Shown: positions 45,024-64,000 of the stretch, piece after piece
How positions within the stretch are numbered: the stretch's first letter is position 1
Layout: each line of letters starts with the position of its first letter
NCBI GenBank assembly: GCA_020201525.1
Contig: JAIVGO010000105.1
Span: forward strand, 57 to 64,056
Reading direction: 5' to 3'
Source of the DNA: Actinomycetota bacterium
Lineage (GTDB): Bacteria; Actinomycetota; AC-67
DNA length: 64,000 nt
Notes under the pieces: generated by a model
The model's database searches: none
Seen by the model: the letters and a program-made list of their open reading frames with translations, nothing else
What the model was told of the DNA's origin: nothing
Program-made: the position numbers and the translations under genes

Positions 45024-45029
45024 GCGCCG

Positions 45030-46517: not shown

Positions 46518-49060
46518 GACTGCGTCAGCCTTCGCAAGACCCGGCGCCGGGCCGCGAAAAAGACGGGCGCGACAAACAAAACCCAAAGCCCAACCGATCG
46601 CGCGAACATTCCTCCTTCACCGGCGACGAGAACCTTCCATCCATGTCCGATCGTCCGGACGACGCGCTCAACGATGCTTTCCTTCGGCGGCGTCACAACC
46701 GGCCGCTCCAGTTGAGGCACCTCAATCTTCGGCACAACCACCGGCGGCAGTGGTACTGCGGGCGGCTCGACAACGGCCGGCACGATCCGAATCGACGTCG
46801 CGTCACCCTTCGTCGCCGCGAAGTCGAAAATGAGACGGGAGGCGAGCGCGCGGTCGTTCACGAATGTCAGGCGCAGCGCCGGCACTTGGGTCTCGGTCTT
46901 CTCTTGATTGTTGATCACAATGTCTTCTTGCTGTTGCCAAGGGTCGCGAATCGCGTGACCATGTGCGCCACCTTTGGTCTTCAGCACATCGGCTGAGGGC
47001 AACTCGACCCGAACTTGCGCGCCGAGCTGCGATGAGATTCCCTCGGCGACTTTAGACGCGTCGCACGATTCGGCTCCGCCGCAACTGTAGGTGTCCGTCT
47101 CCACGCCTTCGAAAATACGCTCGTACGTCGCCGACGATCCGCCGGGCTTACCGGTCGCGCCGACGTTGATCTCCGATCGCACAAAAGCAATGGAGACTCC
47201 ACCGGTGATACGTATGTTGCGCGCCTCGGCAAAGACGGTTCCGACGAGCTTGCCTGTCGCGTCGCGGTGCAGCTCCGTTCCGCTCAGCGATGATCCGATC
47301 GAAATGAGGTTCGGGATCGAAACGCCGCCGAATTCGGCACTCGACCTCGCCAGAGACTTCTCGAGAGAACACGCCCCTGTCGCATCGCCGTCGCCCTGCG
47401 GCGCTTCGCCGTCGAGCGCGCGTGCGTGCACGTGCGGGCTCGAAGGCGTGCCGCCGAAGTCGCCGCACTGGGCTTCCTCGTATCGCCAATCAGGAAGCGA
47501 CACGGATTTCTTTATCGTGTCGTAATCGGAGACGGTGTTCGCGTCGCGATCCACGGCAACGGCTTCCGTGCTCGACTCGTCGTTGCTCAAATGGGTTCGC
47601 CGGATCCGCGCGAAATACAAGTTGCGGTCTCCGTCCTTCAATCCGGTGGCGTTGCCGAAGGCACCCCAGTAATCGCCCCCAAACGAGAAGACGTTTTGCA
47701 ACGCGGCATTCACGCCGCCGATGCGTTCGATGCGCAGCCCGAACGCTTGCGCGTCGGCGGCAAATTGCGGTTCTTCGGTCGTGAGTGAATCCAGCCGGGT
47801 GAAATCCGTGGTTCCTCCCGGCGCAAACTCGTCGTCCGAAAGCGTGTCGCGGAAGACCGTGTAGACCCACGTGGAGTTCGGTCCCCGGATGGGCACGACG
47901 ATCGAAGAGTTGAACGGGACGGTGACGACCGCCCCGAGGTTCGGACCGTATCCGAAGCTCGTGGCTTGCGGTATCTCGTAACCTCTGTCCCCGCTCACGA
48001 GCACGGCACCGTCGATGTCCACGTACATCCTTCCGTTCTCCGCGTTGAGCCCTGCTCCCAGAACGTTGAGGTTTCCAGCCGCGATCTGACCGACGAACAC
48101 TTTGTGAATGCCGTCGAAAACCCACACCGATTGCGCCGGGGAATTTGGATCGGATGCCACCAACACGAGGCGCTTCGCTTTTTGATCTGCGTACACGTCG
48201 CCTCGCGCGTAGCTCCCGGGGAGGAAATAGAGCTGTTGGACGCTCGTGTCCTTGCGTTCGACCGCAGCGACGGCTTGGACGCCCGGAGCGACAACCGACT
48301 GCGCTTGCGTCGCGCCACATCCAACGATGACGGAGTCCGGCGTTGTAAGTGCTTCCGCTTGCGTAAAGTAGGTGATTGCCGACTGGCATCCGCGCAGAAC
48401 AACCGGTCCCCAGGTCGCATCTCCCCCGACCCGGTCAATCTCCACGACGAACACGCCGGTCATCCGAGGCACGTCGGCCGACGGGAGTACACGAGCCTTC
48501 AGCCCCGGAACAGCCTGTCCGATCAGGAGGATCCGGTTTTGACTTGGAATCGTCATCCCGAGAGGGCGAAGCCCAGGCGGGAACACCGTTGCCAGCGGCA
48601 GTTCCGACGCAACGTCGAACGAGTCCAAATTGATCGTTACGAGCGTCGGCAACGTCGTGTTGTCCATGGATTCCGATGTCGGATACGTGACGAGAAGCAA
48701 ACGGCGCGCGGCTTCGTCGATTGCGAGAACGCGCGGCTTTCCCCCGCCACCACTTTGTTGCCAGTAGGACGGGTACGTCACGCTGCGAACCTTACGAAGA
48801 TCATTGCCGTCGTACGCCGTGATCCATAGAGGGCGATCGAGGTCGCCGCCGACTTCGAGCAAGCGCCGCGCATGGTTGTCCACGACGAGCTGGCTTCCCG
48901 AGGTGAGAGGAATCGTACCGACGGCATGCAGTCCGGGTTGGGCGGCATTCGCCGCTACGGGAAAGACGGGAATCAGTGCAAGAACAGCGATGACCGCCGC
49001 GAGACGAATCCCGCGGCAGCTTCGCCGTTGCGCAAGCCACGCCGAGCGCAACTCACGCAT
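46514..49060 (-). CDS. Large secreted/cell-surface protein (848 aa): signal peptide, beta-propeller-like N-terminal region, Pro-rich stalk, C-terminal TM anchor with basic tail
   Basis: Signal peptide MREL...PVFPVAANA. Repeated YVTN-like segments. PAVVEPPAVPLPPVVVPKIEVPQLERPVVTPP linker. C-terminal VGLWVLFVAPVFFAARRRVLRR. Confidence 0.7.
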   Translation of the reverse strand: MRELRSAWLAQRRSCRGIRLAAVIAVLALIPVFPVAANAAQPGLHAVGTIPLTSGSQLVVDNHARRLLEVGGDLDRPLWITAYDGNDLRKVRSVTYPSYWQQSGGGGKPRVLAIDEAARRLLLVTYPTSESMDNTTLPTLVTINLDSFDVASELPLATVFPPGLRPLGMTIPSQNRILLIGQAVPGLKARVLPSADVPRMTGVFVVEIDRVGGDATWGPVVLRGCQSAITYFTQAEALTTPDSVIVGCGATQAQSVVAPGVQAVAAVERKDTSVQQLYFLPGSYARGDVYADQKAKRLVLVASDPNSPAQSVWVFDGIHKVFVGQIAAGNLNVLGAGLNAENGRMYVDIDGAVLVSGDRGYEIPQATSFGYGPNLGAVVTVPFNSSIVVPIRGPNSTWVYTVFRDTLSDDEFAPGGTTDFTRLDSLTTEEPQFAADAQAFGLRIERIGGVNAALQNVFSFGGDYWGAFGNATGLKDGDRNLYFARIRRTHLSNDESSTEAVAVDRDANTVSDYDTIKKSVSLPDWRYEEAQCGDFGGTPSSPHVHARALDGEAPQGDGDATGACSLEKSLARSSAEFGGVSIPNLISIGSSLSGTELHRDATGKLVGTVFAEARNIRITGGVSIAFVRSEINVGATGKPGGSSATYERIFEGVETDTYSCGGAESCDASKVAEGISSQLGAQVRVELPSADVLKTKGGAHGHAIRDPWQQQEDIVINNQEKTETQVPALRLTFVNDRALASRLIFDFAATKGDATSIRIVPAVVEPPAVPLPPVVVPKIEVPQLERPVVTPPKESIVERVVRTIGHGWKVLVAGEGGMFARSVGLWVLFVAPVFFAARRRVLRRLTQS

Positions 49061-49132
49061 ACATCTCCTTCACGCGCTTCCACGCGCCTCTCGCCAGCGC
49101 CACAACAAAAACCTCGCCTTTTTTCGGTGTTG

Positions 49133-49759
49133 TTACTGGACGGCCTCGATGCCACCGACGATCGCGAGCTGGTTGAAGCAAGCCTTCAATCCGCCGGGAC
49201 CGGCGGTACAGTCGATACCCGGCACGACACCACCGGGAATGATGACCGGCGCAGCGGTCGCCTCTGCACGTGCCGTCGGATAGGAAATCCCGTTGCACTT
49301 GAAAGAATCGAGGCGAAGATCGGCAACGACCCCGAGCGAATGGCCCTGGAGGTTCCAGCTGCAGCTGTTACTGCCGCTCGTGATGCTCATGTTGCCGACG
49401 ATGTCGGTCACGATGGGCGTTGCAGCCAAAGCGTTGTACGCGGGCTCGAGCGGCGAGGTTCCCGTCAGCGGCGTCGAAGAGCATCCCGAGTGCGTCGCGT
49501 CGCCGTGCTTGCAGAACGAGAACGCGCCACTTAACGGGAACGTTCCGGCCACAGAACCCTCACAAGCCACGTTTCCGGAGACCGTTCCGAAGCCGCCATT
49601 GACGAGAATCAGGTTCTCGTAGCCGCCGCCGTTGTCGAGCAGGACCGTGCCCTCGACTTGACAGACAACGCCACCGGCTGCATGCGCGGGCGCGAATCCG
49701 AAGACCATCGCCAGCACGACACCGATCAGAAGAACGATTCGAATCTTGCGCTTGTCCAC
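49133..49759 (-). CDS. Secreted Cys/Gly-rich hypothetical protein (208 aa)
   Basis: GGAGGTG RBS and GTG start, followed by a signal peptide. 10 Cys in a 180-aa mature region. Confidence 0.6.
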   Translation of the reverse strand: MDKRKIRIVLLIGVVLAMVFGFAPAHAAGGVVCQVEGTVLLDNGGGYENLILVNGGFGTVSGNVACEGSVAGTFPLSGAFSFCKHGDATHSGCSSTPLTGTSPLEPAYNALAATPIVTDIVGNMSITSGSNSCSWNLQGHSLGVVADLRLDSFKCNGISYPTARAEATAAPVIIPGGVVPGIDCTAGPGGLKACFNQLAIVGGIEAVQ

Positions 49760-49912
49760 CGAAGCACCTCCACTCTTGGGACCCCGAGCCGGGCCCTCAC
49801 CCTCTGGCTTTTGTGACGCGGTGTCAGGATTCGCTTCGCCGGGGGTTCATTCCTGCCGCAATCGGGTGGAATTCGGACGGCGAATATAGCCGTTTGCCTG
49901 GCGGAACGTCTA

Positions 49913-51022
49913 CTAGTCGGTCACGAGACCGTTCAGGCGCTCGAGTGTGTCGGCGCACTCGGTCACCATGTCGAAAATGACGTCCCGCGCGCTGCGCACC
50001 GACTTCATCGAGCCCACGATCTGCCCGACCGGCATCCCGATCAACTCTTCCGGCTGGTAGCGGTAGATTCGGTGGTAGGCCTCGCTCGTGAGCATCCACT
50101 GCAGCGGCATCGGCAGCGGATCCGGGTTCTTCGGGTCATCCCACTCCTCCGTCCATTTCGTGCGCAGCATGCGGGCAGGCTTGCCGCTCATGACTCGTGA
50201 CCGGACGGTATCCCGTGACGAGGCATCGAACAGCTTTTGGACGACGACCGGCGGCGTATCCGCCTCCGCAACCGTCAGCCAGATCGATCCCGTCCAGACG
50301 CCTTGCGCTCCGAGCGCAAGCCCGGCCGCCATCTGACGCCCCGATCCGATGCCGCCCGCTGCGAGCACCGGAGTGGGCGCCACCGCGTCGACCACTTCCG
50401 GGACGAGGACCATCGTTGCTACCTCGGCGGTGTGACCGCCGGCCTCGGTGCCTTGCGCCACGATGAAGTCGACGCCGGCTTCCTTCTGCGCGATCGCTTG
50501 CTCGATGCGGCCGACGAGCGCGGCAACCTTGACGCCGCGCCGGCGCGCCTCGTCGACTACGTCCTTCGGCGGGGCTCCCAATGCGTTCACCAGCAACGCG
50601 ATTGGGTGCTCCCAGCAAACGTCGAGCTGCGGACGCGCCGTCTGGTCGGTCCAACCGAGCAGCTGGTGCGGCGCCGGCTCGTCGGCAGGCAGCTTCGGGA
50701 CGTTGTACTTGTCGAGGATGGCTTCGACGAACTTCTTGTGCTCTTCGGGGATCGACTTTTGAAGCTCCTCCATCAACGACCCGGCGTCGATTTCGGCGCC
50801 CACGTACTTGGCCGGCATGACGACGTCGACGCCGTACGGCTTGCCGTCGACATGGTCGTCGATCCACCTCAGCTCGATCTCGAGCTCGTCCGGCGTGAAG
50901 TACAGGGCGCCGAGGACGCCCATCCCTCCGGCGCGGCTGACGGCTGCGACGACGTCGCGACAGTGGCTGAACGCGAAGATCGGAAACTCGATGCCAAACA
51001 TGTCGCAGATTGGCGTACGCAT
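49913..51022 (-). CDS. Nitronate monooxygenase (NMO / 2-nitropropane-dioxygenase-like FMN enzyme); start re-set to MRTPICDMFGIEFPIFAFSH
   Basis: GIEFPIFA...GGMGVLG and ...AQGTEAGGH NMO motifs. GGAG RBS. The tool's 65-aa extension is junk. Confidence 0.85.
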   Translation of the reverse strand: MRTPICDMFGIEFPIFAFSHCRDVVAAVSRAGGMGVLGALYFTPDELEIELRWIDDHVDGKPYGVDVVMPAKYVGAEIDAGSLMEELQKSIPEEHKKFVEAILDKYNVPKLPADEPAPHQLLGWTDQTARPQLDVCWEHPIALLVNALGAPPKDVVDEARRRGVKVAALVGRIEQAIAQKEAGVDFIVAQGTEAGGHTAEVATMVLVPEVVDAVAPTPVLAAGGIGSGRQMAAGLALGAQGVWTGSIWLTVAEADTPPVVVQKLFDASSRDTVRSRVMSGKPARMLRTKWTEEWDDPKNPDPLPMPLQWMLTSEAYHRIYRYQPEELIGMPVGQIVGSMKSVRSARDVIFDMVTECADTLERLNGLVTD

Positions 51023-51032
51023 TCCAGGCTCC

Positions 51033-52598
51033 TTACGCAGATGTGGCGACGGCCTTCGCCCACGGGTAGTCGGGCTTGCCGCTCGGTTGCCGCTGAACTT
51101 GATCGACGAGGTGAATTTCGCGCGGCACCTTGTAGCGGGCGATGAGCGGGCTGCAAAAGTCCTGGATCGCTTCGAGCGTGGGACTCTTTCCGGGACGCGG
51201 CTGTACGACGGCCGCAACTCGCTCGCCCCACCGGTCGTCCGGCACGCCGACGATCACGACGTCGTATACATCGGGGTGACCCTTCACCGCCGACTCGACT
51301 TCTTCGGGATAGATCTTCTCGCCGCCGGAGTTGATGCAGACCGACCCACGCCCGAGCACGGTCACAATCCCGTCGGCTTCGACGACTGCCATGTCCCCGG
51401 GGATAACCCAGCGCTCGCCGTTTACTTCCACGAACGTCGCGGCGGTCTTTTCCGGATCCTTGTAATACCCGAGCGGGATGTAGCGTTTCAGCGCGAGCCT
51501 GCCGACGGCGCCAGATCCCGGCACGACCGGCTTCAAATCCTCGTCGAGCACCGCGGTGCGCTCGTTCATCATGTAATGCCGGGACCCAGCGCCGAACGCT
51601 TCCCCGCCTTGAAATCCCGTTTCGGTCGCGCCGAAGTTCTCCGCGATGATGGAGTTCGGCAGCAGCGTTCGGAGCTGTTCCTTGACAGCTTCCGAAAGCA
51701 CCGCACCGGTCGAGCCGAAGTACATCAGCGTGGACGTGTCGTACTGCTTTTCCTCGAGCGCGTCGGCGAGCGGACGCGCCATCGCGTCTCCGACGATCGT
51801 CATCGTGTTCACCTTGTTGTCTTCAACCGCGCGCCACGCCGCATGCGCGTCGAAACGCGGAATGAGCGTCACTGTGTCGCCCCAGTTGAAGCCGATGAGA
51901 ACGGCGAGCTGTGCGGCTCCGTGAATGAGCGGGGGAACGGGAAACTGCGACAGCGCGTAGCGCTGGCGGGCGATCTCCGCTTGCTCTTCCGGCTTGGAGA
52001 TCGGATCCATGGTCGGGTTACCGCCGCCCAGCGCCGCGAAGAAGAGATCTTCGTGCCGCCACATGACGCCTTTCGGCATACCTGTGGTGCCTCCGGTGAA
52101 GATGATGAACAAGTCGTCTTGCGAGCGGGGCGCGAAGTCGCGATCCGGTGATCCTGCGTTCAGCGCCTCCTCGTATTCGACGGACCCCTCGAACGGAACG
52201 TCGCTTTCGTCATCCACCACGACCAGCGTGTGCATCTTCGGCGACCGAACCGCAACAACACGTTGCGAAAACTCGCGCTGATGAAAGAGCGCTACGAGAT
52301 CGGCTTCGTCGAATATGTATTTCAGCTCGCCTTCGACGTAGCGATAGTTGACGTTGATGGGAATCGCGCGAATCTTCAAGCACGCCAACAGACCCTCGAC
52401 GTACGGAAAACCGTTGTAGAGGTACATTCCGACGTGGTTGCCGGCCTTCACGCCGGAAGCGAGCAGGTGGTGCGCGATCCGGTTCGAACGGGCGTCGATC
52501 TCGGAGTACGTGAGGCTGCGGTCTCCGACCACGAGCGCAGTGCGGTCGGCAACGGCGTCTACGACCGATTCAAAGATGTCGGCGAGATTGAAGTCCAT
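51033..52598 (-). CDS. AMP-dependent acyl-CoA synthetase (FadD3/FadD17-like context)
   Basis: FTGGTTGMPKG motif. A KstR-type operator lies 10 bp upstream of the ATG at 52598. Confidence 0.9.
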   Translation of the reverse strand: MDFNLADIFESVVDAVADRTALVVGDRSLTYSEIDARSNRIAHHLLASGVKAGNHVGMYLYNGFPYVEGLLACLKIRAIPINVNYRYVEGELKYIFDEADLVALFHQREFSQRVVAVRSPKMHTLVVVDDESDVPFEGSVEYEEALNAGSPDRDFAPRSQDDLFIIFTGGTTGMPKGVMWRHEDLFFAALGGGNPTMDPISKPEEQAEIARQRYALSQFPVPPLIHGAAQLAVLIGFNWGDTVTLIPRFDAHAAWRAVEDNKVNTMTIVGDAMARPLADALEEKQYDTSTLMYFGSTGAVLSEAVKEQLRTLLPNSIIAENFGATETGFQGGEAFGAGSRHYMMNERTAVLDEDLKPVVPGSGAVGRLALKRYIPLGYYKDPEKTAATFVEVNGERWVIPGDMAVVEADGIVTVLGRGSVCINSGGEKIYPEEVESAVKGHPDVYDVVIVGVPDDRWGERVAAVVQPRPGKSPTLEAIQDFCSPLIARYKVPREIHLVDQVQRQPSGKPDYPWAKAVATSA

Positions 52599-52607
52599 CC
52601 GGCGTAG

Positions 52608-52621
52608 TAGAACACGTTCTC
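52608..52621. promoter_or_regulatory. KstR-type operator (TAGAACACGTTCTC) upstream of the fadD-NMO operon
   Basis: Consensus match (13/14), 10 bp from the ATG at 52598. Confidence 0.7.
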
Positions 52622-52637
52622 GTTTCTGAATGCAAGG

Positions 52638-53207
52638 TCAGTTCTGACCGGCCTTCTCTCGCGGGTTTGTGTCGCCGAGTGGATCGCAGATTCGGCACGG
52701 TTCCAGCTTTGCCTCGGTGCCCTCGGGAACGGCTTTCACGCCACTTCGCCCGGAGACGACGACACAGTCGGGACGGTGGAACATCGTGCCGGTCGGCGTC
52801 ATCACAAAGCCATTCGACCCGTGAGTGGCTTGAGATCCCCCGGCCACCCCGGTCGCCAGCAAGGTCTCGATGCGACGGAGCGAGGATTGCAACTCGTCGG
52901 ACTGACGCCGCGATTCCTGGCCTTGACGCGCCATCCAATACGCGAAGTAGCACAGGCCGCCGACCACCGCGATCGCAAGGCCGAACACGCCACCGGAAAT
53001 AAGGTACGGAATTTGCTCGAACACGTACGGCGTGCGCGACGCGCCCCACCAACCCAGAAGGATCACCGGCAGCCCGATCCCGATCAGAGCGGCGCCGGCA
53101 ATCATCAACCAGCGATCTGCTCTGCGTCTCCCATCCCCGCGGACGCGAAGCTTTCCGATTGCGTCACGAAGCCTCGCGTTGCGCTCCTCGCCAGACGATT
53201 CCATCAA
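52638..53207 (-). CDS. Hypothetical membrane protein (2 TM) with C-terminal Cys-x-n-CxxC putative zinc-ribbon domain
   Basis: Two hydrophobic helices, then HRPDC...EPCRIC. 4-bp overlap with the upstream surface-protein gene. Confidence 0.55.
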   Translation of the reverse strand: MMESSGEERNARLRDAIGKLRVRGDGRRRADRWLMIAGAALIGIGLPVILLGWWGASRTPYVFEQIPYLISGGVFGLAIAVVGGLCYFAYWMARQGQESRRQSDELQSSLRRIETLLATGVAGGSQATHGSNGFVMTPTGTMFHRPDCVVVSGRSGVKAVPEGTEAKLEPCRICDPLGDTNPREKAGQN

Positions 53208-54733
53208 CGCGCCGTTTCCAGCGGACAGACCTCAGCCACCGTCGTTGCAGTCGCACCGTCGGCAAAGCGACGGAGCACAAAAGCCGCGAGCACGCCGAGC
53301 AGCAGCGCCAATGCGGCGGCCGAGCCCGGCAGTCCTTTCACCCCAACGGGCACCGCATCGATGATCAATTGCCCTCCACCAGAAGCAAGCGGGGTCGTGC
53401 CGCCGGTGAAGCCGCCCCCGGCGAATCCGCCAGGTGCAACCGGGATGCCGACCCCGCCGTTGTCGATCGGAATGTCGATGACGGGCTCTTCGTCGGGGTT
53501 GTACATGGGTGCGGCTGCAGCATCGACGGCCGCATCACCGAGGACGATCGAAAACGTCTGGTCGGCCTGCGTCATGCTCGTCACGTAACCGGCGATCGTC
53601 GGCGAGAACACCTTGAAAACTTCATACAGCGGGCTGCTCTTGGAGCTGGGGCTCCGAATCCAATTGCGCACGTTCTCATCCGGAATCGCATCGATAAGCT
53701 TGTTCATGCCTTTGGAGTTCATTCGGATGATCAAACCGTCGACGGTGCCGAATCCGTAGGCGGATTCCTTCTCCACGCGTTTGGATGCGGGCGTGAGAAT
53801 CACATCGAACCCGTTCTCACGCAATTGATCGAGGAGTGGCTTCGCGTATTGTCCGAGCGGATCCTGGCTCGCGTTCGACGCGTGAAAGCCGTTCCCGTCG
53901 ACATAGATCGGAACATGGCATGTCTTCTGATCGGCGTTCGGCTGCTGACACTGCGCGTCAAAGCTCATGCCCGTGATCTTCGTCGCCGTCGTGGGCGTTG
54001 CGGTGACTCCGTCGCTCGTCACCCGAGCGACCGTGTCGATCGAAGCGAAGGACACGAGCCCGAGCAGCGACACATCCTCGAGATGAGTGATCGCAGATGA
54101 AATCGCGACCCCGCGGCGCACCTCGGTGACGGTGCGCGAGCTCATCGCCCCGATGAAGAAACCATTCACGGGGCCGACTTCCTTCGTAACCGTGGTCCCG
54201 TCGGAACGACCCTCACGCGCGTTCGCGATCATGTCCACGACACCACCGCTCGCGTATTGCGACGACGAAGGATGGCCTTCGGCTTCCGGATAAAAAGCTT
54301 CCGCGCGGAGCGGATACGTGCAACTGTTCGTTTCACAGCCGCCTGCGATCCCGGACTTGAGCGCCTCGCGAAGATCGTCAATCTGCGGAACGGATCCGGC
54401 GCGTGTGGGGTCGAACATCACCAAGTCGAGAAGGAGCGCCGGGTCGGCGTTACCGGCAGCGTCGCCCGGCCACGCAACGCTCGCGAGGGCACGGCCACTC
54501 GGCCCCGAGTCCGTATTGGAAATGCTGTGCACCTTGCGAAGCTCAAACGTCGGATCGGTCGGCAATCCAAATGAGGGCTGGTTGTAGATGACCGAGATCG
54601 CCGTCGCCGACGCCGACATTTGGTAGCCACCGAGATCCGTTTCTTCACCCGATGCACGCATCGCGAGCGGCAACGCCGACAGGATCGCGACGGCTATCGC
54701 GACAAATGCGTATCTGTGTGGCTTGCGCATCAT
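53204..54733 (-). CDS. Secreted/cell-surface protein (509 aa) with signal peptide, Gly-rich linker and C-terminal TM anchor
   Basis: Signal peptide MMRKPHRYAFVAIAVAILSALPLAMRA. Gly-rich GGFAGGGFTGGTTPLASGGG linker. ...LPGSAAALALLLGVLAAFVLRR anchor. Confidence 0.65.
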   Translation of the reverse strand: MMRKPHRYAFVAIAVAILSALPLAMRASGEETDLGGYQMSASATAISVIYNQPSFGLPTDPTFELRKVHSISNTDSGPSGRALASVAWPGDAAGNADPALLLDLVMFDPTRAGSVPQIDDLREALKSGIAGGCETNSCTYPLRAEAFYPEAEGHPSSSQYASGGVVDMIANAREGRSDGTTVTKEVGPVNGFFIGAMSSRTVTEVRRGVAISSAITHLEDVSLLGLVSFASIDTVARVTSDGVTATPTTATKITGMSFDAQCQQPNADQKTCHVPIYVDGNGFHASNASQDPLGQYAKPLLDQLRENGFDVILTPASKRVEKESAYGFGTVDGLIIRMNSKGMNKLIDAIPDENVRNWIRSPSSKSSPLYEVFKVFSPTIAGYVTSMTQADQTFSIVLGDAAVDAAAAPMYNPDEEPVIDIPIDNGGVGIPVAPGGFAGGGFTGGTTPLASGGGQLIIDAVPVGVKGLPGSAAALALLLGVLAAFVLRRFADGATATTVAEVCPLETAR

Positions 54734-54748
54734 CCGGTCTTTCCAAGG

Positions 54749-55273
54749 TTAGAGCTCGCCCACGATGATCGGCGCCAAGCCGAGAGACAGCTCGTCGAGC
54801 ATCAACAACGCCGGATCCGTAGCCAGCGCCCGGGCGATCGCCAGCATCTGCTGCTCTCCGCCCGACATCGTCCCTGCGAGCTGGTTACGACGCTCCTTCA
54901 GCCGCGGGAACTGATCGAATGTGCGCTCCTCAACTTGCTGGAGAGGCACTTTCGAATACGTCGCCATGCGCAAGTTCTCGTCGACAGTGAGGTTCGGAAA
55001 GATCCCGCGGCCTTCCGGAATTGCGCAGACGCCGGCGCGCGCCAGCTCATCCGCAGTCGCGCCGTTGACATGGCGGCCGGCAACGTGGACACACCCGGAT
55101 TTCGCTTGCATTTGGCCGGAAGCGACTTTGAGCGTGGTCGTTTTCCCGGCGCCGTTCGGGCCGAGAAGCGCCATCACGCTCCGTTCCGGCACCACGAGAT
55201 CAACGCCGTGCAAGACCTCGATCCGTCCATAGGCGGCGTGGACGTCCCGCAGCTCCAAAACGGGCGCGCTCAT
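54749..55273 (-). CDS. LivF-like ABC ATPase, C-terminally truncated (about 174 aa; ends right after the Walker B/D-loop region); start re-set to MSAPVLELRDV
   Basis: Walker A GPNGAGKTT, signature SGGEQQM, and Walker B LLMLDELSLGLAP are followed directly by a TAA. Only 15 bp separate it from the next gene. Normal LivF continues about 55 aa further, through the H-loop. Confidence 0.7.
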   Translation of the reverse strand: MSAPVLELRDVHAAYGRIEVLHGVDLVVPERSVMALLGPNGAGKTTTLKVASGQMQAKSGCVHVAGRHVNGATADELARAGVCAIPEGRGIFPNLTVDENLRMATYSKVPLQQVEERTFDQFPRLKERRNQLAGTMSGGEQQMLAIARALATDPALLMLDELSLGLAPIIVGEL

Positions 55274-56004
55274 GCCGCGTCTCCATCCTGGCCGAGGTAC
55301 GCCACTTGGACCTCCTTGTTCGCCTGAACCTCGGCCGGGGATCCGTGTGCAATGAGCCTGCCGAAGTCCAAGACGTAGATGTCGCTGCACAGCCCCATTA
55401 CGAACTCGATGTCATGTTCAACGAGCAAGACGGCTAAACCTTGTGCGGCCAAACGTTTGAGGAGTTCGGCCATAAAGTCCGTTTCGCTCTCAGTGAGGCC
55501 GCTGGAAGCTTCGTCGAGCAGCATGAGCCGCGGCGCCGTCGCGAGAGCGCGCCCCAGCTCAACGAGACGGAGAAGCCCGGTCGACATCGTGTCGGCGCGC
55601 TGATCGGCGACGTGGCCGATGCCGACGGTCTCGAGAATCTCACCGGCGATCGCGCGCGGATCGATCTTTTCTTTGGACCATCCTTGGCGAATCTCCGCAG
55701 CGACGAGAATGTTCTCGCGCGCGGTGAGCGAGCCGAAGACTTCGAGACGCTGGAACGTGCGGGCGATCCCGAGCCGGGCGCGCTCGTGCGGTTCCAGACC
55801 GGTCATGTCGCGATCCTCGAACCGCACACGGCCGTTCGTCGGATCGATGAGTCCCGAAATGACGTTGAACATCGTCGTCTTGCCGGCCCCGTTTGGCCCG
55901 ATGAGCCCGGTGACCGTTCCGGGTTCCACGGCCAGCTCCACGTCATGGAGCGCGCGCAAGCCTCCGAACGAGACGCCGACGGCTTCAGCCTGCAGTAGCG
56001 GCAA
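55270..56004 (-). CDS. LivG-like ABC transporter ATPase
   Basis: GPNGAGKTT and LLDEASSGL motifs. 244 aa. Confidence 0.9.
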   Translation of the reverse strand: MPLLQAEAVGVSFGGLRALHDVELAVEPGTVTGLIGPNGAGKTTMFNVISGLIDPTNGRVRFEDRDMTGLEPHERARLGIARTFQRLEVFGSLTARENILVAAEIRQGWSKEKIDPRAIAGEILETVGIGHVADQRADTMSTGLLRLVELGRALATAPRLMLLDEASSGLTESETDFMAELLKRLAAQGLAVLLVEHDIEFVMGLCSDIYVLDFGRLIAHGSPAEVQANKEVQVAYLGQDGDAA

Positions 56005-57904
56005 TACCGCTCACCTCCTCCATGATGGGCGGCGGTGCGGCTGCCGGCGGATTTGCCGGCTCCTTGGGAAGAACCCTGCGCACCTGTTGCGTGATGAAGA
56101 ACGACAGGCCGTTCGGGTTGCGCCCGAGGCTGAGCGCGCCTGCTCCGACGATCATGAAGACCAATCCGTTGAGAGCAGGGAACTTCGATTGCATGTAAAG
56201 CAGCAGCGCGTAAAGCACGCCGCCGATCAGCGATCCGAACACCGTTGTAATGCCGCCGACGACGGCGAGGAGAATCACGGGCAAGCTTTGAAACATCAAA
56301 AAGTCGACCCCGCCGGCACTTCCTGCGAGCCCGCCGTACAGTGCTCCGGCAACGCCGGCCATCGCGGCGGAGATCATGAACACGGTGAGCTTGGTACGAG
56401 CGAGGCTCAGTCCCAGGGTCGCGCATGCAACCTGCGAGTCGCGCATCGCCGCGAGGCGGCGGCCGAAACGGCCCCGCCTTATGGCAATGACAATCGTGCC
56501 GAACACGCCGAACATGATTGAGAGCAAAATCATGTACGCACGCTCGCCGTCGAACGAAACACCGAGCAGGTCCAGTCGAGGAATGTTCAATGCTCCGAGA
56601 TTGCCAAACACATGCTCGTTCGAGAACACCATCTTGTCCATCAGCACCGCAAATGCCATCGTGCTGAGAGCGAGATACAGACCCTGGAGGCGCAACGACG
56701 GCAACGCGACGATCGCGCCGACGGCGCCGGCGAGAACGAGCGCGGCAACGATCCCGATCAAATTGCCGTCGGCCCCCATACGCGCCATCGCGAAAGCGCC
56801 GAGACCGGCGAACGTCATCTGGCACAGCGAGACTTGCCCCGCGAATCCGACGAGCGGAATGAGTGAAAGCATGATGAGCCCGTACGCAAGACCGAGGGCC
56901 GTCCGCGAGATGTCTGCCGGTTGAAGCATTCCCGAGACGATCACCGTGACAGCAATGAGCACGCCAAAACCCGCAAAAGCTTTCCGGTATGTCGGAAGCC
57001 GGGGACCGACCGCACCCGCGAGGCGCGCCGTTCGAAGCCGTGCTTCGGGCAGCGTCAGCAGCGCAACGAACAAGAAAAGCGTAGGGAGTGCTTCGCGCAA
57101 GCCGAGCAGCGGCCCACTGAGATTGATGTATCCGATGACATATGCCTCGATGAGCCCGAGCGTAAAACCACCCACGAACGTCATGGGAAGACTGCTCAAC
57201 CGCCCGACCATCGCGGCCGCATACGCATTGACGACGAGCAGCGTCAAAATGAGAACGTTCATTTGGAGTACCGGCGCGAGCAAAATGCCGGCAATCGAGG
57301 CCAGCGATGCGCCGATCGCCCAGGAAAGCATGCTGACGCGGTTCGGCTGCGCTCCGTTCATCGCGAGCAAGTTCCGATCGTCGACCACTGCTCGCATGGC
57401 TATCCCCACACGGGTACGCGACAGAAGCGCATAGAGGAACGCCGCGACGACTCCGCCGGCAAGAACCGTGATGATTTCGTGCCACGTTACAAGGATGCCC
57501 CCGAGCTGAACTCCGCTGGGCTCAAAGAATCCGGGTAGCTCGCGGGCGACGGTCGGATCCCACAAAATATTTGCAACACCGACGAGGAACACCATGATCG
57601 CGACGGTGATCACGAGCGAGGTCGCGACCGACGCCCCGCGAAGTCCCCGGATCACGCCACGTTCGAGCCCCGCGCCGAACAGAGGCGCGAGGACGAAGAC
57701 GACGAGGATCATCGCGAGTGGCGCGGGCCAATGCCATCCCACGCGCAGTTGCCAATAAAGAAACGCCATCAGCATGCCGATACCGCCGTGCGCGATGTTG
57801 AAGATTCCCGACGTCGTGTACGTGACGACCAAGCCGGTCGCTGCCACCGAGTAGACCGACCCGGTGACGATTCCTGCGATGGTGAACGAGAGAAACTCGC
57901 CCAC
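55985..57904 (-). CDS. Fused LivH-LivM-type ABC permease (639 aa)
   Basis: Two branched-chain-amino-acid permease domains in tandem. Confidence 0.9.
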   Translation of the reverse strand: MGEFLSFTIAGIVTGSVYSVAATGLVVTYTTSGIFNIAHGGIGMLMAFLYWQLRVGWHWPAPLAMILVVFVLAPLFGAGLERGVIRGLRGASVATSLVITVAIMVFLVGVANILWDPTVARELPGFFEPSGVQLGGILVTWHEIITVLAGGVVAAFLYALLSRTRVGIAMRAVVDDRNLLAMNGAQPNRVSMLSWAIGASLASIAGILLAPVLQMNVLILTLLVVNAYAAAMVGRLSSLPMTFVGGFTLGLIEAYVIGYINLSGPLLGLREALPTLFLFVALLTLPEARLRTARLAGAVGPRLPTYRKAFAGFGVLIAVTVIVSGMLQPADISRTALGLAYGLIMLSLIPLVGFAGQVSLCQMTFAGLGAFAMARMGADGNLIGIVAALVLAGAVGAIVALPSLRLQGLYLALSTMAFAVLMDKMVFSNEHVFGNLGALNIPRLDLLGVSFDGERAYMILLSIMFGVFGTIVIAIRRGRFGRRLAAMRDSQVACATLGLSLARTKLTVFMISAAMAGVAGALYGGLAGSAGGVDFLMFQSLPVILLAVVGGITTVFGSLIGGVLYALLLYMQSKFPALNGLVFMIVGAGALSLGRNPNGLSFFITQQVRRVLPKEPANPPAAAPPPIMEEVSGIAATAG

Positions 57905-57919
57905 GCCGCGATCTCCTTT

Positions 57920-59356
57920 CTACGCCCTGGCTGGTATGAGGGGGAACCGGCAGTCCCAACCGCTCGCCGGCGTCAGCCGCGAAAATTTGTTGTTCTTCAC
58001 GATCGCATAGAGAAAACAATTCGTCGGGGTCTTCAGCCCCGTGTCGTGCGCGGCGTGCAATCCGAAACCCGTCCACTGGTGAATCTTTTTCAGTTCCTCG
58101 AACACCTTCTTGCGCGTCAGATCGGGACCGGCCGATGTCGCCGCTTGAGCAAACAGGCGCCCGGCCGACCATGCATACAGACCGAAGTAGTCGGGCTTCG
58201 CACCGGGCTGAACGCGAGCCAGCCATTGCCGGTACAACATCATCTCCGGACTCGACGGCTCTTCCCCGTAAATGCCGAGAGCATTGTTGAGAAATACGAG
58301 CGATCCTTCAACGCTCGGCCCTCCAAGGGAGAGATAGCCTGAGGAGTACGCCACCGAGTCCCAATCGCGAACTTTCGGGAACCATTTTTGTTGACGCATT
58401 GCGTCTTGAATCTTCACCAGAGTTCGATAATCGCCGACAAAGTTGACGTACTCGATGCCCAGGTCCTTCATGTCGAGCACAAAAGGGTTGTAATTCGGTT
58501 CCGACACGTTGAGCTGCTGCCTGTAATCAAAGTGGTACCCGATTGACTCCAAGGCGTTGATACGCTGCGCCATCGAATTCTTGGAAACGGCCACATTGAG
58601 CCACAATGCGGCCGCGTGCTTGTAGACCGCCGGACCGTACGTCTGCTTGATGTACTGCTCCGGGCCGATCATGTACTTGTCGTTGCGCACAGGGTACGCG
58701 GGATAATTGTTCGTCGCGTTCGTGCGGGCGGCGTTCACGGTGATTGCACTGATATCGGGAATGCCGCAGTCTTGTCCGGCCTGCGCACCTCCGTTGTCGA
58801 GCGCCGACATCGAGCCCACGAGCGCGAATGCTTTCTGGCATGCCTCGAGCACGGCATTGCGATTCGCGCCGGCATCGATGCGGGTATCGAGCAGCAACGG
58901 CTTCATCGCTCGGCCGCAGATCCCTCCTTGGCTGTTGACGAATGCCGACAGCGCCTGCATCGCTTGATGTGTCGACTTGAACAGCCCGGATTGCACACCG
59001 CTGACATCCGACGCGACAGCGACCGTGATTTGGCTTGGGGTGACACCAACGTCCGTGGCCTTGTTGCCGCCGGCCGACGGCTCGCAACGCTGCACCGGGG
59101 TGACGCCGGGCGGTACGGCGCCGCCGGGCGGAAGCACACCGCCACTGGGTCCTACGCTCGGAAAAACGCCACCGGATGGTTGCGCACCGGGCACTTCACC
59201 CGGATTAGCCGACACGGCATTCCCACCGCGACCGGCGCCGATTCCCGCGGCGCGTTGCTCCGCCGTCAGACGCGCACCGCACGCCGTCGCAATCAGGGCG
59301 ACTGCCCCAAGAAACGCAGCCGTGCGCAAACTCAAACGAGTGCGGCGTTGCGGCAT
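57920..59356 (-). CDS. ABC transporter substrate-binding lipoprotein (Liv/amide family)
   Basis: Lipobox LIATAC, a Pro/Gly-rich linker, and a type I periplasmic-binding fold. Confidence 0.85.
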   Translation of the reverse strand: MPQRRTRLSLRTAAFLGAVALIATACGARLTAEQRAAGIGAGRGGNAVSANPGEVPGAQPSGGVFPSVGPSGGVLPPGGAVPPGVTPVQRCEPSAGGNKATDVGVTPSQITVAVASDVSGVQSGLFKSTHQAMQALSAFVNSQGGICGRAMKPLLLDTRIDAGANRNAVLEACQKAFALVGSMSALDNGGAQAGQDCGIPDISAITVNAARTNATNNYPAYPVRNDKYMIGPEQYIKQTYGPAVYKHAAALWLNVAVSKNSMAQRINALESIGYHFDYRQQLNVSEPNYNPFVLDMKDLGIEYVNFVGDYRTLVKIQDAMRQQKWFPKVRDWDSVAYSSGYLSLGGPSVEGSLVFLNNALGIYGEEPSSPEMMLYRQWLARVQPGAKPDYFGLYAWSAGRLFAQAATSAGPDLTRKKVFEELKKIHQWTGFGLHAAHDTGLKTPTNCFLYAIVKNNKFSRLTPASGWDCRFPLIPARA

Positions 59357-59366
59357 GCCAAGCCTC

Positions 59367-60521
59367 CTACCGTCGCCGAGTCTCGGACCAGGGCTTGTTT
59401 GCGTCGGGCTCTAGTTCGCGAGGAAGCCCCAGAATGCGCTCCCCGATGACATTACGCAATATCTCCGACGTCCCGCCACCGATCGTCAATGCCGGCGAAA
59501 AGACAAAACCTTGCGCCCACCATCCTGCATCCGCACCGATCGGTCCCGAATCGGCCAGCATTCCCGCGGGTCCCGCCAAATCTTTTGCAATACGGAAAAT
59601 GTCGCGACCGTGCGGATCGGCGAGCGCTTTGCGCACCGACGCAGCCGGCGCGGATCCGCCGGTGATAGCCGCGCCGACCATGCGCAAGCCGTGCACGCGA
59701 AGGATTTCGCCCTCGATGTACAGTTGCGCGAGCTTCTGACGCATCACGAGATCCGGCGCACCGCCGCGGTCTCGTACAAGATCGATGAGATCTTGCGCGG
59801 TCGGCCCCCAACCCCATTGCGCGCCGCCGCGCGACAACGTGACACGCTCGTTCGCAAGCGTGTCTTTCGCAAGCTCCCAGCCGCCGTTCTCCGGACCGAT
59901 GAGGTTACTTGCAGGCACGCGCACATCGGTAAAGAACACGTTGTTGAAGTTATGCCACCCGCTCGCGTCGACGATCGGCTGGATCTCGACACCGGGCGAC
60001 TTCATGTCGACGATGAAGTACGAGATACCTGCGTGCTTCGGCACATCGGCATTCGTTCGCGCAAGCAATATCCCGAACGCAGCGTCGTGCGCCAACGACG
60101 TCCACGTTTTCTGGCCGTTGACGATGTACACGTCGCCTTCCCCGACGGCGCGAGTCGATGCATTCGCGAGATCTGATCCTGCTTCAGGCTCACTGAACAG
60201 CTGGCACCAGATTTCCTCGCCGCTCAGCATCGGCGGGATATAGCGATTCTTCTGCTGATCGGTGCCGTGAGCGACGAGGATCGGACCGCAATGTCCCGTG
60301 CCGATCGGGTTGATGGGGCGCTGCACGCCGGCCTTCTTCAGCTCGTCGTCGATGATGAGCTGCTGCATCGGCTCGGCGTCGAGACCCCACGGCCGCGGCC
60401 AGTGCGGCACCACGTACCCCGCTCCGGCAAGATCCTTGCCGCTTGGATTCGGATGCGCCGCGAGCCAGGCTCGAACCTCCAGCCGTCTGGAATCGTCCTG
60501 AGGAGGAAGCTCGAGATCCAT
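59367..60521 (-). CDS. Acyl-CoA dehydrogenase divergent from kstR (FadE34-like context); start re-set to MDLELPPQDD
   Basis: ACAD pattern. Divergent arrangement with the kstR ortholog and a shared operator. Confidence 0.85.
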   Translation of the reverse strand: MDLELPPQDDSRRLEVRAWLAAHPNPSGKDLAGAGYVVPHWPRPWGLDAEPMQQLIIDDELKKAGVQRPINPIGTGHCGPILVAHGTDQQKNRYIPPMLSGEEIWCQLFSEPEAGSDLANASTRAVGEGDVYIVNGQKTWTSLAHDAAFGILLARTNADVPKHAGISYFIVDMKSPGVEIQPIVDASGWHNFNNVFFTDVRVPASNLIGPENGGWELAKDTLANERVTLSRGGAQWGWGPTAQDLIDLVRDRGGAPDLVMRQKLAQLYIEGEILRVHGLRMVGAAITGGSAPAASVRKALADPHGRDIFRIAKDLAGPAGMLADSGPIGADAGWWAQGFVFSPALTIGGGTSEILRNVIGERILGLPRELEPDANKPWSETRRR

Positions 60522-60555
60522 ATGAACCTCTTTATACGTCGTGCTGCAGAAAAAT

Positions 60556-60569
60556 TGCAACAGGTTCTA
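60556..60569. promoter_or_regulatory. KstR operator (TGCAACAGGTTCTA) in the fadE-kstR divergent region (autoregulation site)
   Basis: Perfect TnnAACnnGTTnnA match, 14 bp upstream of the kstR start. Confidence 0.75.
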
Positions 60570-60582
60570 GAATGGCGCTACC

Positions 60583-61173
60583 GTGGCGACCCAAGTGGAA
60601 ACGCTCCTGACGGAGAAACAATCCGCGAGGCGCCGGCGCGTGATCAAGGCGGCAATGGTCCTTGCCGCAGAAGGCGGGTACGACGCCGTGCAAATGCGCG
60701 ACGTCGCGGCGCGGGCGCGCGTGGCACTCGGCACGCTCTACCGCTACTTCCCCTCGAAAGATCAACTTCTGGTCGCTGCGCTCGGAGAATGGACGGGCGA
60801 GTTGCAGCAGCGACTCGTTACGCGGCCGCCGCGCGGCAGTACTCCGGTCGAGCGCGTGACGGACGTCTTGCGCCGGGCCACTCGTGCGCTCGAACGAGAG
60901 CCGCAGCTGACGGCGGCACTCGTCACGGCGCTGTCGTCGCTCACATCTGAAGATCCGAAAGCGCTCGAGGATGCGTCCAGCGTGTATCTCGTGATGAGCG
61001 AGATCATCGGGCACGCGATGGACGACGGCGACGTGCACGACCGAGAAGCAACGGTACGCGTGCTCGGCCAAGTGTGGTTTTCGGCGCTCGTCGCTTGGGT
61101 GCGCGGCTGGGGTCCCGACGGGCAGATGTTCAAGGACCTCGAAGCGGCAGTGCGCTTGTTGCTCCCGCACTGA
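60583..61173 (+). CDS. kstR: TetR-family repressor KstR ortholog (master regulator of sterol uptake and side-chain/ring A-B catabolism)
   Basis: GGYDAVQMRDVAARARVALGTLYRYFPSKDQLLVAAL and ...VWFSALVAWVRG...AVRLLL closely parallel M. tuberculosis KstR (GGYEAVQMRAVADRADVAVGTLYRYFPSK...). A perfect TnnAACnnGTTnnA site lies in its own upstream region. Confidence 0.9.
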   Translation: MATQVETLLTEKQSARRRRVIKAAMVLAAEGGYDAVQMRDVAARARVALGTLYRYFPSKDQLLVAALGEWTGELQQRLVTRPPRGSTPVERVTDVLRRATRALEREPQLTAALVTALSSLTSEDPKALEDASSVYLVMSEIIGHAMDDGDVHDREATVRVLGQVWFSALVAWVRGWGPDGQMFKDLEAAVRLLLPH

Positions 61174-61223
61174 TCGAGCGTACTCGTGCACACAGGTTCA
61201 CGTTGCCGCAATTCGGAGCCGTA

Positions 61224-61745
61224 ATGCGCTTCGTGCCGATGACGATGAGGGACTTGGCGATGTTCGCCGAATGGCTGCGCCGGCCGCACGTCGCCGAATG
61301 GTGGACGTCTCCTGCGTCGGAGGACGAGGTACGGGCCGAATACAGCGCCGAAATCGAAGGAGGCTCGACGTCATCGTTTTACATCGCGCACGTCGATGAC
61401 GTTCCGATCGGATTCATACAGTCTTATGTTGCGGCGGGATCCGGCGACGGCTGGTGGAGCGAGGAGACGGATCCAGGCGTGCGCGGGATCGATCAATTCA
61501 TCGCCGATCCCACGAGGCTGAGCCAAGGCCTCGGAACGCAAATGATCAAGGAGTTCACCGAAATGTTGTTCGCCGAGCCAGGCGTGACGAGGATTCAGGC
61601 CGACCCCGATCCGAGGAACACTCGAGCGATACGAAGCTATGGGAAAGCCGGGTTCCGTCCAACAGTCGTCGTCGCGACGCCCGACGGCGATGCACTACTG
61701 ATGATCCTGGACCGCCCGGCTCCGGGTGATGTGGCTTATCGTTGA
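61224..61745 (+). CDS. GNAT-family N-acetyltransferase; start re-set to MRFVPMTMRDL
   Basis: GNAT pattern (...RIQADPDPRNTRAIRSYGKAGF). GGAG RBS 7 nt upstream of the ATG at 61224. Confidence 0.8.
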   Translation: MRFVPMTMRDLAMFAEWLRRPHVAEWWTSPASEDEVRAEYSAEIEGGSTSSFYIAHVDDVPIGFIQSYVAAGSGDGWWSEETDPGVRGIDQFIADPTRLSQGLGTQMIKEFTEMLFAEPGVTRIQADPDPRNTRAIRSYGKAGFRPTVVVATPDGDALLMILDRPAPGDVAYR

Positions 61746-62230: not shown

Positions 62231-62241
62231 GGGGGAAGACG

Positions 62242-62628: not shown

Positions 62629-62729
62629 CCTGAAGTCGAGCTCTCCGCGTTGGCGGGTCACGGTGGCGTGAGTTCTCCGTGCGTCTATACACGTAGGACG
62701 TGTATAGACAACAAAGTTAGCGTTGCTAA

Positions 62730-63956
<1,227 letters not shown>

Positions 63957-63958
63957 CC

Positions 63959-64000
63959 GGTGCTCGACGGTGCAGTCGCGATCGTTACCGGCGCCGGTCA
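63959..64000 (+). CDS. Start of an SDR-family oxidoreductase (VLDGAVAIVTGAG...), truncated by the window end
   Basis: GTG start followed by the typical SDR N-terminus AIVTGAG. Only 14 codons are visible. Confidence 0.4.

What the first reader, a model, noticed from the sequence alone, without database searches (positions are those of the whole stretch)
52638..55273. Truncated livF abutting an inserted surface-protein / Zn-ribbon membrane-protein gene pair
The LivF-like ATPase ends 15 bp before the next gene, directly after Walker B and the D-loop (...LLMLDELSLGLAPIIVGEL*). It lacks the roughly 55 C-terminal residues, including the H-loop, that all ABC ATPases need. Immediately downstream and translationally coupled are a 509-aa secreted Gly-rich surface protein and a 189-aa 2-TM protein with a CxxC ribbon. 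This looks like an insertion or deletion event that clipped livF. Either LivG alone powers this importer, or the truncated LivF is a degenerate or regulatory subunit.
Basis: seen in the sequence. Interest (0 to 1): 0.6.

Follow-up and report, generated by a model that had tools for sequence, protein, structure and literature searches.

The report
Strain-specific deletion truncating a livF gene
One ATPase gene of an amino-acid-type ABC importer has lost 164 bases in this assembled genome and is almost certainly dead, while the two unknown genes after it were not inserted; they follow an intact copy of the gene in every relative examined, so this is an ordinary pseudogene or assembly variant.

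Summary
The LivF-type gene (54749-55273, minus strand) encodes 174 aa. It stops at TAA just after Walker B and the D-loop, 15 nt before a 509-aa gene, which is followed by a 188/189-aa two-TM Zn-motif gene.

The "inserted gene pair" reading is wrong. In 16 related loci, a full-length livF (235-236 aa where both gene ends are on the contig) is followed directly by homologues of the same two genes. The conserved block is SBP, fused permease, livG, livF, p509, p189.

The window instead carries an internal frameshifting deletion of about 164 nt. The last six livF codons (NLGKTG*) survive out of frame, and their TGA still overlaps the p509 ATG.

A sister MAG shares 21.4 kb with the window, with only 2 mismatches and no gaps. 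One of its contigs runs on into intact livF. Another begins at exactly the base where the window's deletion ends. The junction is therefore an assembly-graph branch point. It is most likely a real deletion allele segregating in the population (about 0.68), less likely a misjoin (about 0.25).

NCBI's annotation appears to give the stub no protein. The finding is ordinary and of low interest. The conserved, uncharacterised p509/p189 pair attached to this importer subfamily is the only mildly novel element.

The parts
57920..59356 (-). Substrate-binding protein (478 aa) of the LIV/HAAT-type ABC importer
   Evidence: Pfam Peripla_BP_6, E 3e-23. Occupies the same position in the related loci that extend this far upstream.
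55985..57904 (-). Fused LivH/LivM-type permease (639 aa)
   Evidence: Pfam BPD_transp_2, two stretches. NCBIfam UrtB/UrtC and LivH/LivM models match the two halves.
55270..56004 (-). LivG-type ATPase (244 aa), intact, with His in the switch (VEHD)
   Evidence: Pfam ABC_tran plus BCA_ABC_TP_C. The exact protein is NCBI MCA1833379.1.
54749..55273 (-). Truncated LivF-type ATPase ORF: 174 codons plus a TAA created at the deletion junction
   Evidence: Identical to the sister contig L001 up to window 54750, then diverges. The exact 174-aa and 213-aa products are absent from the protein collection, while the flanking genes carry consecutive NCBI accessions.
54749..54750 (-). Deletion junction (GAGCTCTA|ACCTTGG). 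About 164 nt of livF (nt 525-688 of 708) are missing between these two bases.
   Evidence: L001 matches window 64000-54750 and L013 matches 54749-42638, each with 1 mismatch and no gaps. L013 begins at exactly this base.
54730..54749 (-). Out-of-frame remnant of the livF 3' end. With the preceding A (54750) it reads AAC CTT GGA AAG ACC GGA TGA = NLGKTG*. Its TGA overlaps the p509 start.
   Evidence: Frame translation. Relatives end ...AYLGKTG* or ...AYLGKAG*.
53204..54733 (-). p509: signal-peptide-like N-terminus, beta-rich body, Gly/Pro-rich linker, C-terminal TM anchor. Member of an uncharacterised family that always follows livF.
   Evidence: No Pfam or NCBIfam hit. Five word-index homologues. 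The family profile finds 453 cluster representatives at E<=1e-3. Synteny. The AF2 model is poor, pLDDT 44.5.
52638..53204 (-). p189 (188 aa from the ATG): a helical membrane hairpin (two TM segments by my reading) with a conserved connecting loop, a long helix, and a C-terminal H-x3-C-x22-C-x2-C motif
   Evidence: 520 homologues. H143, C147, C170 and C173 are invariant. AF2 model pLDDT 86. Weak, sub-threshold Ada_Zn_binding and 1ADN matches.
51033..52598 (-). Acyl-CoA synthetase (521 aa), the next conserved neighbour
   Evidence: Pfam AMP-binding; NCBIfam PRK07798 at 719 bits, above its cut-off. Follows p189 in L003, L007, L010, L017, L018, L019 and L020.

Best explanation
The window carries a recent loss-of-function allele of livF, specific to one population or strain. 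It sits inside a conserved block: SBP, fused permease, livG, livF, p509, p189.

Shown:
- An internal deletion joins livF nt 524 to nt 689. It is about 164 nt if the gene was 708 nt, as in all relatives.
- The deletion shifts the frame and creates a TAA at the junction. The product is a 174-aa stub.
- The stub keeps Walker A, the Q-loop, the signature motif, Walker B and the D-loop. It lacks the last quarter of the nucleotide-binding domain: the switch region, the C-terminal strands and helices, and the AYLG tail.
- The p509 and p189 genes are ancestral operon members, not cargo.

Inferred:
- The stub cannot form a working LivG/LivF ATPase dimer. In cells carrying this allele the importer is therefore inactive unless another LivF-type subunit elsewhere in the genome substitutes.
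- Translation of p509 and p189 probably continues, because the new stop lies only 15 nt upstream of the p509 ATG.
- The allele coexists with the intact allele in the sampled population. This would explain why an independent assembly breaks at exactly the 3' breakpoint.
For: (1) Sequence: the stub, the TAA and the 15-nt spacer. The out-of-frame remnant reads NLGKTG* and matches relatives' ...YLGKTG*.

(2) Sister MAG GCA_046262895.1. Contig JBHELV010000063 (L001) equals window 64000-54750 with 1 mismatch in 9251 nt and no gaps. It then continues for 149 nt as a normal livF (YDLVRQIAARGVAILVVEQFARMALAVSDYAAIMVHGKIRMVGQPKDVEE). Contig JBHELV010000026 (L013) equals window 54749-42638 with 1 mismatch in 12112 nt. 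Its first base is the first base after the window's junction.

(3) Sixteen related loci show a full-length livF or its intact C-terminus directly upstream of p509 and p189 homologues. These are L002-L005, L007-L012, L014-L017, L019 and L020, with p509 identity ranging from 64% to below 30%.

(4) None of the 120 best LivF hits is truncated in this way. Almost all are 235 aa and the shortest are 215-226 aa.

(5) The missing segment is nowhere else in the 64 kb.

(6) The 20 nt on each side of the junction share no repeat with the deleted segment's ends. A de Bruijn collapse at k>=21 therefore cannot create the join without reads that span it (inference).

(7) The exact stub sequence is absent from the protein collection, although the neighbours are MCA1833378, MCA1833379 and MCA1833380. 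This fits NCBI annotating it as a pseudogene (inference).

(8) The closest solved structure, 1JI0, aligns over residues 5-233 of the intact relative. The lost part is therefore integral to the domain fold.
Against: - No reads are available, so the deletion allele is supported only by one deposited contig.
- The exact coincidence of the junction with a contig start in the other assembly is also what some kinds of misjoin or shared assembly problem could give.
- The two MAGs may derive from the same or linked samples, so they may not be independent.
- A 25-mer across the 3' side found no further copy in JGI metagenomes, so there is no third observation.
- No microhomology at the breakpoints points to a deletion mechanism.
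- Loss of function is inferred from ABC ATPase architecture and was not measured.
Confidence: 0.68

Rival explanations
1. Assembly artefact. The organism has an intact livF, and the contig behind the window was mis-joined or collapsed across about 164 nt at a spot that is hard to assemble. The sister assembly simply broke at the same spot.
For: - The window's junction coincides to the base with the start of contig JBHELV010000026.
- The sister contig carrying livF stops about 15 nt earlier.
- Both are short-contig MAGs.
- No independent third copy of the junction was found.
Against: - No shared k-mer exists between the sequence before the 5' breakpoint and before the 3' breakpoint, or between the sequences after them. 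A graph assembler needs real junction-spanning reads to make this join.
- A contig that begins exactly at the first base shared by two alternative paths is what a genuine two-allele branch produces (inference about assemblers).
- Outside this site the two assemblies have different contig ends, so they were assembled independently.
Confidence: 0.25
2. One reading: the short LivF is a working degenerate or regulatory subunit, or LivG alone energises the importer.
For: - The stub keeps Walker A, the signature motif and Walker B.
- Downstream genes stay translatable.
- A second LIV-type system in the window (42048-46586) has a fused permease-LivG and no LivF next to it. LivF-less arrangements may therefore exist in this lineage.
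Against: - The truncation is absent from a genome with 2 mismatches in the 21.4 kb it shares with the window, and from all other relatives. There is no evolutionary retention.
- It arises from a frameshift that leaves the old 3' end as an out-of-frame scar. That is the signature of damage, not design.
- The lost part is core fold in 1JI0.
Confidence: 0.04
3. Insertion of a foreign two-gene cassette (p509 and p189) that clipped livF.
For: Only the appearance in this single window: unknown genes abutting a truncated gene.
Against: - The pair follows an intact livF in all 16 related loci.
- No flanking direct repeats.
- GC is 0.58-0.66 across the pair, the same as the flanks.
- No tRNA gene within 45000-64000.
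- No integrase or transposase domain in the ten ORFs scanned between 46514 and 59356.
Confidence: 0.01

Closest known systems
LivF / UrtE-type ATPase subunits of HAAT-family (LIV-type) ABC importers; closest solved structure T. maritima TM1139, PDB 1JI0
   Same: Best NCBIfam hits are UrtE and LivF. The intact relative P0002 aligns to 1JI0 end to end at E 8.5e-56, with Gln at the switch position and the AYLG tail. The operon context is SBP, permease and LivG.
   Different: The window's copy stops at residue 174 of 235. Even the intact relatives score far below the equivalog cut-offs (192 against 441 bits for LivF, 197 against 286 for UrtE). The substrate is therefore unknown. The neighbours (acyl-CoA synthetase, acyl-CoA dehydrogenase, thiolase, TetR) suggest an organic or fatty-acid-like substrate rather than branched-chain amino acids (inference).
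Ordinary bacterial pseudogenes made by internal frameshifting deletions, which annotation pipelines report as incomplete or 'missing C-terminus' genes, and strain-level indel polymorphism in metagenome populations
   Same: A frameshift with an immediate stop, an out-of-frame remnant of the old 3' end, an intact allele in a near-identical genome, and apparently no protein record in the NCBI annotation.
   Different: Nothing unusual, except that the breakpoint coincides with a contig boundary in a second assembly. That makes it a candidate for a segregating allele rather than a fixed pseudogene.
N-terminal zinc-binding domain of Ada (Pfam PF02805, PDB 1ADN), as a comparison for the p189 C-terminus
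   Same: Similar ligand spacing (x3, about 22-26, x2) and a 'hRP.C ... PC..C.P' motif. Weak matches in 10 of 41 family members (best E 0.0019) and to 1ADN (E 0.45).
   Different: All matches are below threshold. The first ligand is His, not Cys. The domain is attached to a two-TM membrane protein. There is no evidence of DNA binding or methyl transfer.

Membership tests
LivF/UrtE-type ABC ATPase (HAAT family) | Walker A, Q-loop, signature LSGGQ-like motif, Walker B and D-loop | tested here: met
   GPNGAGKT, MSGGEQQ, LLMLDE and SLGL are present. Pfam ABC_tran E 5.6e-27 over residues 21-161.
LivF/UrtE-type ABC ATPase (HAAT family) | Complete nucleotide-binding domain: switch region (Gln in LivF), C-terminal strands and helices, AYLG tail | tested here: not met
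   The ORF ends at residue 174. The NCBIfam LivF model is covered at positions 3-173 of 237. Relatives and 1JI0 continue for about 60 more residues.
LivF/UrtE-type ABC ATPase (HAAT family) | Score above the curated equivalog cut-off (LivF 441 bits, UrtE 285.8 bits) | tested here: not met
   The stub scores 159.6 and 164.8 bits. The intact relative P0002 scores 192.5 and 196.6 bits. This is LivF-type by best hit and context only, with substrate unassigned.
LivF/UrtE-type ABC ATPase (HAAT family) | Operon with a LivG-type ATPase, LivH/M permease and Peripla_BP_6 binding protein | tested here: met
   The same order holds in the related loci that extend far enough upstream.
   The pair is present after livF in all 16 loci. 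No flanking repeats. GC matches the flanks. No tRNA gene. No recombinase domain.
Assembly misjoin | A repeat shared by the two joined ends, long enough to collapse a de Bruijn graph | tested here: not met
   The ends of A, B and C share no 20-mer. The 15 nt missing from the sister assembly cannot rescue this, because the 5 known bases before them already differ.
Assembly misjoin | Lack of reads spanning the junction | not testable with these tools
   No read data are available. The junction 25-mer is absent from JGI metagenome contigs.
Ada-type zinc-binding domain (p189 C-terminus) | Four conserved metal ligands with Ada-like spacing, and a Pfam PF02805 match above threshold | tested here: inconclusive
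   H143, C147, C170 and C173 are invariant in 41 sequences. PF02805 matches are only weak, in 10 of 41 members, best E 0.0019. 1ADN E 0.45. Foldseek found no significant hit.

The most novel reading that the evidence does not exclude
The p509 surface-anchored protein and the p189 two-TM zinc-motif protein are dedicated accessory subunits of a distinct six-gene LIV-type ABC importer found in uncultured Actinomycetota. Their genes usually overlap or closely abut livF and each other. The livF deletion seen here is a natural knock-out allele segregating in a wild population. It possibly also disables the neighbouring importer, which has a fused permease-LivG and no LivF of its own.
Probability: 0.3. 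Interest if true: 0.45.

Novelty: new member of a known kind. Interest (0 to 1): 0.17.

Why it matters
As a truncated livF, it matters little. It is a recent null allele or an assembly variant in a metagenome-assembled genome, and NCBI's annotation already appears to treat it as a non-coding remnant.

Two modest points of value remain.
- It is a worked example of why a clipped gene next to unknown genes should be checked against synteny before an insertion is proposed.
- It draws attention to an uncharacterised, fast-evolving pair of membrane proteins. The p509 family has 453 cluster representatives and no Pfam domain. The p189 family has 520 homologues and an invariant H/C/C/C motif. The pair invariably trails livF in this importer subfamily and may be part of the transporter.

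Tried and rejected
- Direct or inverted repeats bounding the gene pair: none at 52630-52640 / 54733-54750.
- An 18-nt perfect inverted repeat (52724-52741 / 53880-53897) looked striking, but 2 of 30 Markov shuffles of the window reach 18 nt. It is compatible with chance.
- Composition shift across the pair: none.
- tRNA genes: none.
- Displaced livF C-terminus elsewhere in the window: none. Only the paralogous ATPases match.
- Further copies of the junction: a 25-mer scan of JGI metagenomes gave 0 hits. The species-representative genome scan found only the L002 contig.
- The exact p509 protein has no gene position on record.
- A literature search for the two assembly accessions returned nothing.
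- Function of p509: no Pfam or NCBIfam hit in the window copy, no Pfam hit in 41 other family members, and no PDB sequence relative. The AF2 model from a 5-sequence alignment has pLDDT 44.5, so I did not use it for fold search.
- Function of p189: the model is good (pLDDT 86), but the best Foldseek PDB match has E 0.096 and the matches are generic helical hairpins.
- Relation between p509 and the nearby 848-aa secreted protein: none (BLASTP E 0.28; hhalign probability 3%).
- Direct abutment of the two sister contigs gives an in-frame 230-aa LivF (...DVEEDLGKTG*). I rejected this in favour of a 15-nt gap, because the AYLG tail is conserved from this lineage to Thermotoga.
Full report
**Observation**

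On the minus strand the window carries a tight gene series:
- a Peripla_BP_6 binding protein (57920-59356);
- a fused LivH/LivM-type permease (55985-57904);
- a LivG-type ATPase (55270-56004);
- a LivF-type ORF (54749-55273);
- a 509-aa ORF (53204-54733);
- a 188/189-aa ORF (52638-53204/53207);
- an acyl-CoA synthetase (51033-52598).

The LivF-type ORF is 174 aa and ends ...LLMLDELSLGLAPIIVGEL*. Its TAA lies 15 nt before the ATG of the 509-aa gene. Pfam ABC_tran covers residues 21-161 only, and the NCBIfam LivF model is matched at positions 3-173 of 237. Two corrections apply. Relatives are 235 aa, so 61 residues are missing. The switch position in this family is Gln (VVEQFA), as in PDB 1JI0.

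**What relatives show**

The best 120 LivF homologues are almost all 235 aa. P0002 is 92% identical and sits on a contig (L002) where a full-length livF is followed at once by 519-aa and 198-aa genes without Pfam domains. These are homologues of the window's two downstream genes.

The three other p509 homologues found by the word-index search lie on short contigs. Each has the C-terminal end of a normal livF (...AYLGKAG* or ...VYLGKTG*) overlapping the p509 start by 4 nt. A metagenome scan with the p509 alignment gave six more loci with p509 identity of 27-58%. All have a full-length livF directly upstream, and a p189 homologue downstream wherever the contig reaches that far.

More distant p189 homologues (52-59% identity) sit on long contigs and show the same block: SBP, permease, LivG, LivF of 235/236 aa, a 460-507-aa protein, then a 184-190-aa protein. 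In one lineage this holds even though the flanking genes differ. The most diverged middle protein still matches the p509 family profile at E 1e-56.

The pair is therefore an ancestral, constant appendix of this importer subfamily, not an insertion. Consistent with that, no direct repeats flank it, its GC content matches the flanks, and no tRNA gene is nearby.

**What happened to livF**

A second MAG (GCA_046262895.1) is essentially the same organism.
- Its contig JBHELV010000063 (L001) equals window 64000-54750, with one mismatch in 9251 nt and no gaps. It then continues for 149 nt as a normal livF before the contig ends.
- Its contig JBHELV010000026 (L013) equals window 54749-42638, with one mismatch in 12112 nt. 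Its very first base is the base after the window's junction.

In the window, the 20 nt after the junction, together with the preceding A, read AAC CTT GGA AAG ACC GGA TGA. This is NLGKTG*, the end of livF in another frame, and its TGA overlaps the p509 ATG exactly as in relatives.

The window therefore lacks an internal piece of livF. The AYLG tail is conserved as far as Thermotoga. For that reason I take the sister contigs to be separated by a 15-nt gap. The deletion is then 164 nt (nt 525-688 of 708). It shifts the frame and makes the TAA at the junction. The missing segment is nowhere else in the window.

**Real allele or artefact**

The junction coincides to the base with a contig start in an independently built assembly. 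The two assemblies have different contig ends everywhere else. That marks the site as a branch point of the assembly graph.

A contig that starts at the first base common to two alternative upstream paths is what a two-allele mixture produces. The sequences around the two breakpoints share no 20-mer. A de Bruijn assembler therefore could not have made the join without reads spanning it. This is inference about assemblers, not a measurement.

I rate a genuine deletion allele, probably coexisting with the intact one, at about 0.68, and a misjoin at about 0.25. Only read mapping or PCR can decide.

The exact stub protein is absent from the 15-billion-protein collection. Its neighbours in the source MAG carry consecutive NCBI accessions: MCA1833378 (p509), MCA1833379 (LivG) and MCA1833380 (permease). 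This suggests the NCBI annotation already treats livF as a pseudogene (inference).

**Consequence**

The stub lacks about a quarter of the nucleotide-binding domain, a part that is integral to the fold in 1JI0. It is most likely unstable and inactive (inference from ABC ATPase architecture).

Only three ABC ATPase domains occur in the 64 kb: the stub, LivG, and the LivG-type domain of a 991-aa fused permease-ATPase in a second LIV-type system at 42048-46586. That second system has no LivF partner nearby. No substitute is therefore visible in the window, and the second system might even depend on the same LivF. This last point is speculation.

Expression of p509 and p189 is probably little affected, because the new stop lies 15 nt from the p509 start.

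Nothing supports the idea of a functional short LivF. The allele is absent from a genome that differs by 2 mismatches in the 21.4 kb it shares with the window.

**The two downstream genes**

p509 has a signal-peptide-like N-terminus, a beta-rich body, a Gly/Pro-rich linker, a C-terminal TM segment and a short tail with a conserved Cys. It evolves fast: 63% identity where LivF is 92% identical. It has no Pfam, NCBIfam or PDB relative, and none of 41 other family members has a Pfam domain. Its profile finds 453 cluster representatives among 1.84 billion. The AF2 model was too poor to use.

p189 has 520 detectable homologues, and those carrying a source name are labelled Actinomycetota or Actinobacteria MAG proteins. 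The confident model shows a helical hairpin through the membrane with a highly conserved short loop (GWxGASRTPYVFEQxPYLISGG), followed by a long helix. A small C-terminal domain has invariant H143, C147, C170 and C173. It resembles the Ada zinc domain only weakly and below threshold, and the fold search gave nothing significant.

Their invariable position after livF, with start and stop codons usually overlapping or closely abutting, suggests they work with the importer. What they do is unknown.

**Verdict**

- The feature is an ordinary strain-level pseudogene or assembly variant of a LivF-type gene, of low interest.
- The conserved p509/p189 module is the one element worth a note for future work.

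Noticed in passing
window 42048-46586 (minus strand): A second LIV-type importer: a 518-aa Peripla_BP_6 binding protein, plus a 991-aa single polypeptide that fuses two permease domains with a LivG-type ATPase (ABC_tran plus BCA_ABC_TP_C). No LivF-type gene lies beside it or anywhere else in the window. It may share the LivF that is truncated here.
   Followed up: partly
window 46514-49060 and 49133-49759 (minus strand): An 848-aa protein (signal-like N-terminus, C-terminal TM segment) and a 208-aa secreted-looking protein, both without any Pfam domain, sit between the two importers. In the sister contig the called 848-aa gene ends 4 nt after the second binding-protein gene begins (L013). It is not detectably related to p509 (BLASTP E 0.28; hhalign probability 3%).
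   Followed up: partly
window 52724-52741 and 53880-53897: A perfect 18-nt inverted repeat with one arm in p189 and one in p509. It is the longest such repeat in the window for arms within 3 kb, but 2 of 30 Markov shuffles reach 18 nt, so it is compatible with chance.
   Followed up: yes
window 52638-54733; loci L002-L005, L007-L012, L014-L020: The p509 and p189 pair follows livF in every related locus examined. This includes a lineage where the flanking genes differ (L014: cyclase and multicopper oxidase instead of acyl-CoA synthetase and NMO). p509 diverges much faster than the transporter genes.
   Followed up: partly
window 55056 and 43110: These are the only two differences from the sister MAG over 21.4 kb. 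One of them lies inside livF itself (Thr73 here, Ser in the sister; relatives have Thr).
   Followed up: yes
window 39343-42047 (plus strand): Two long overlapping plus-strand ORFs in different frames (39343-40845, 500 aa, no Pfam; 40341-42047, 568 aa). They may be one frameshifted gene or a spurious ORF in this high-GC sequence.
   Followed up: no
window 59367-63956: Upstream of the importer lie an acyl-CoA dehydrogenase, a divergent TetR regulator and a thiolase. The TetR and acyl-CoA dehydrogenase recur upstream of the importer in L001, L002, L017 and L019, and the thiolase in L001 and L002. This points to uptake of an acyl or organic-acid substrate rather than branched-chain amino acids.
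   Followed up: partly
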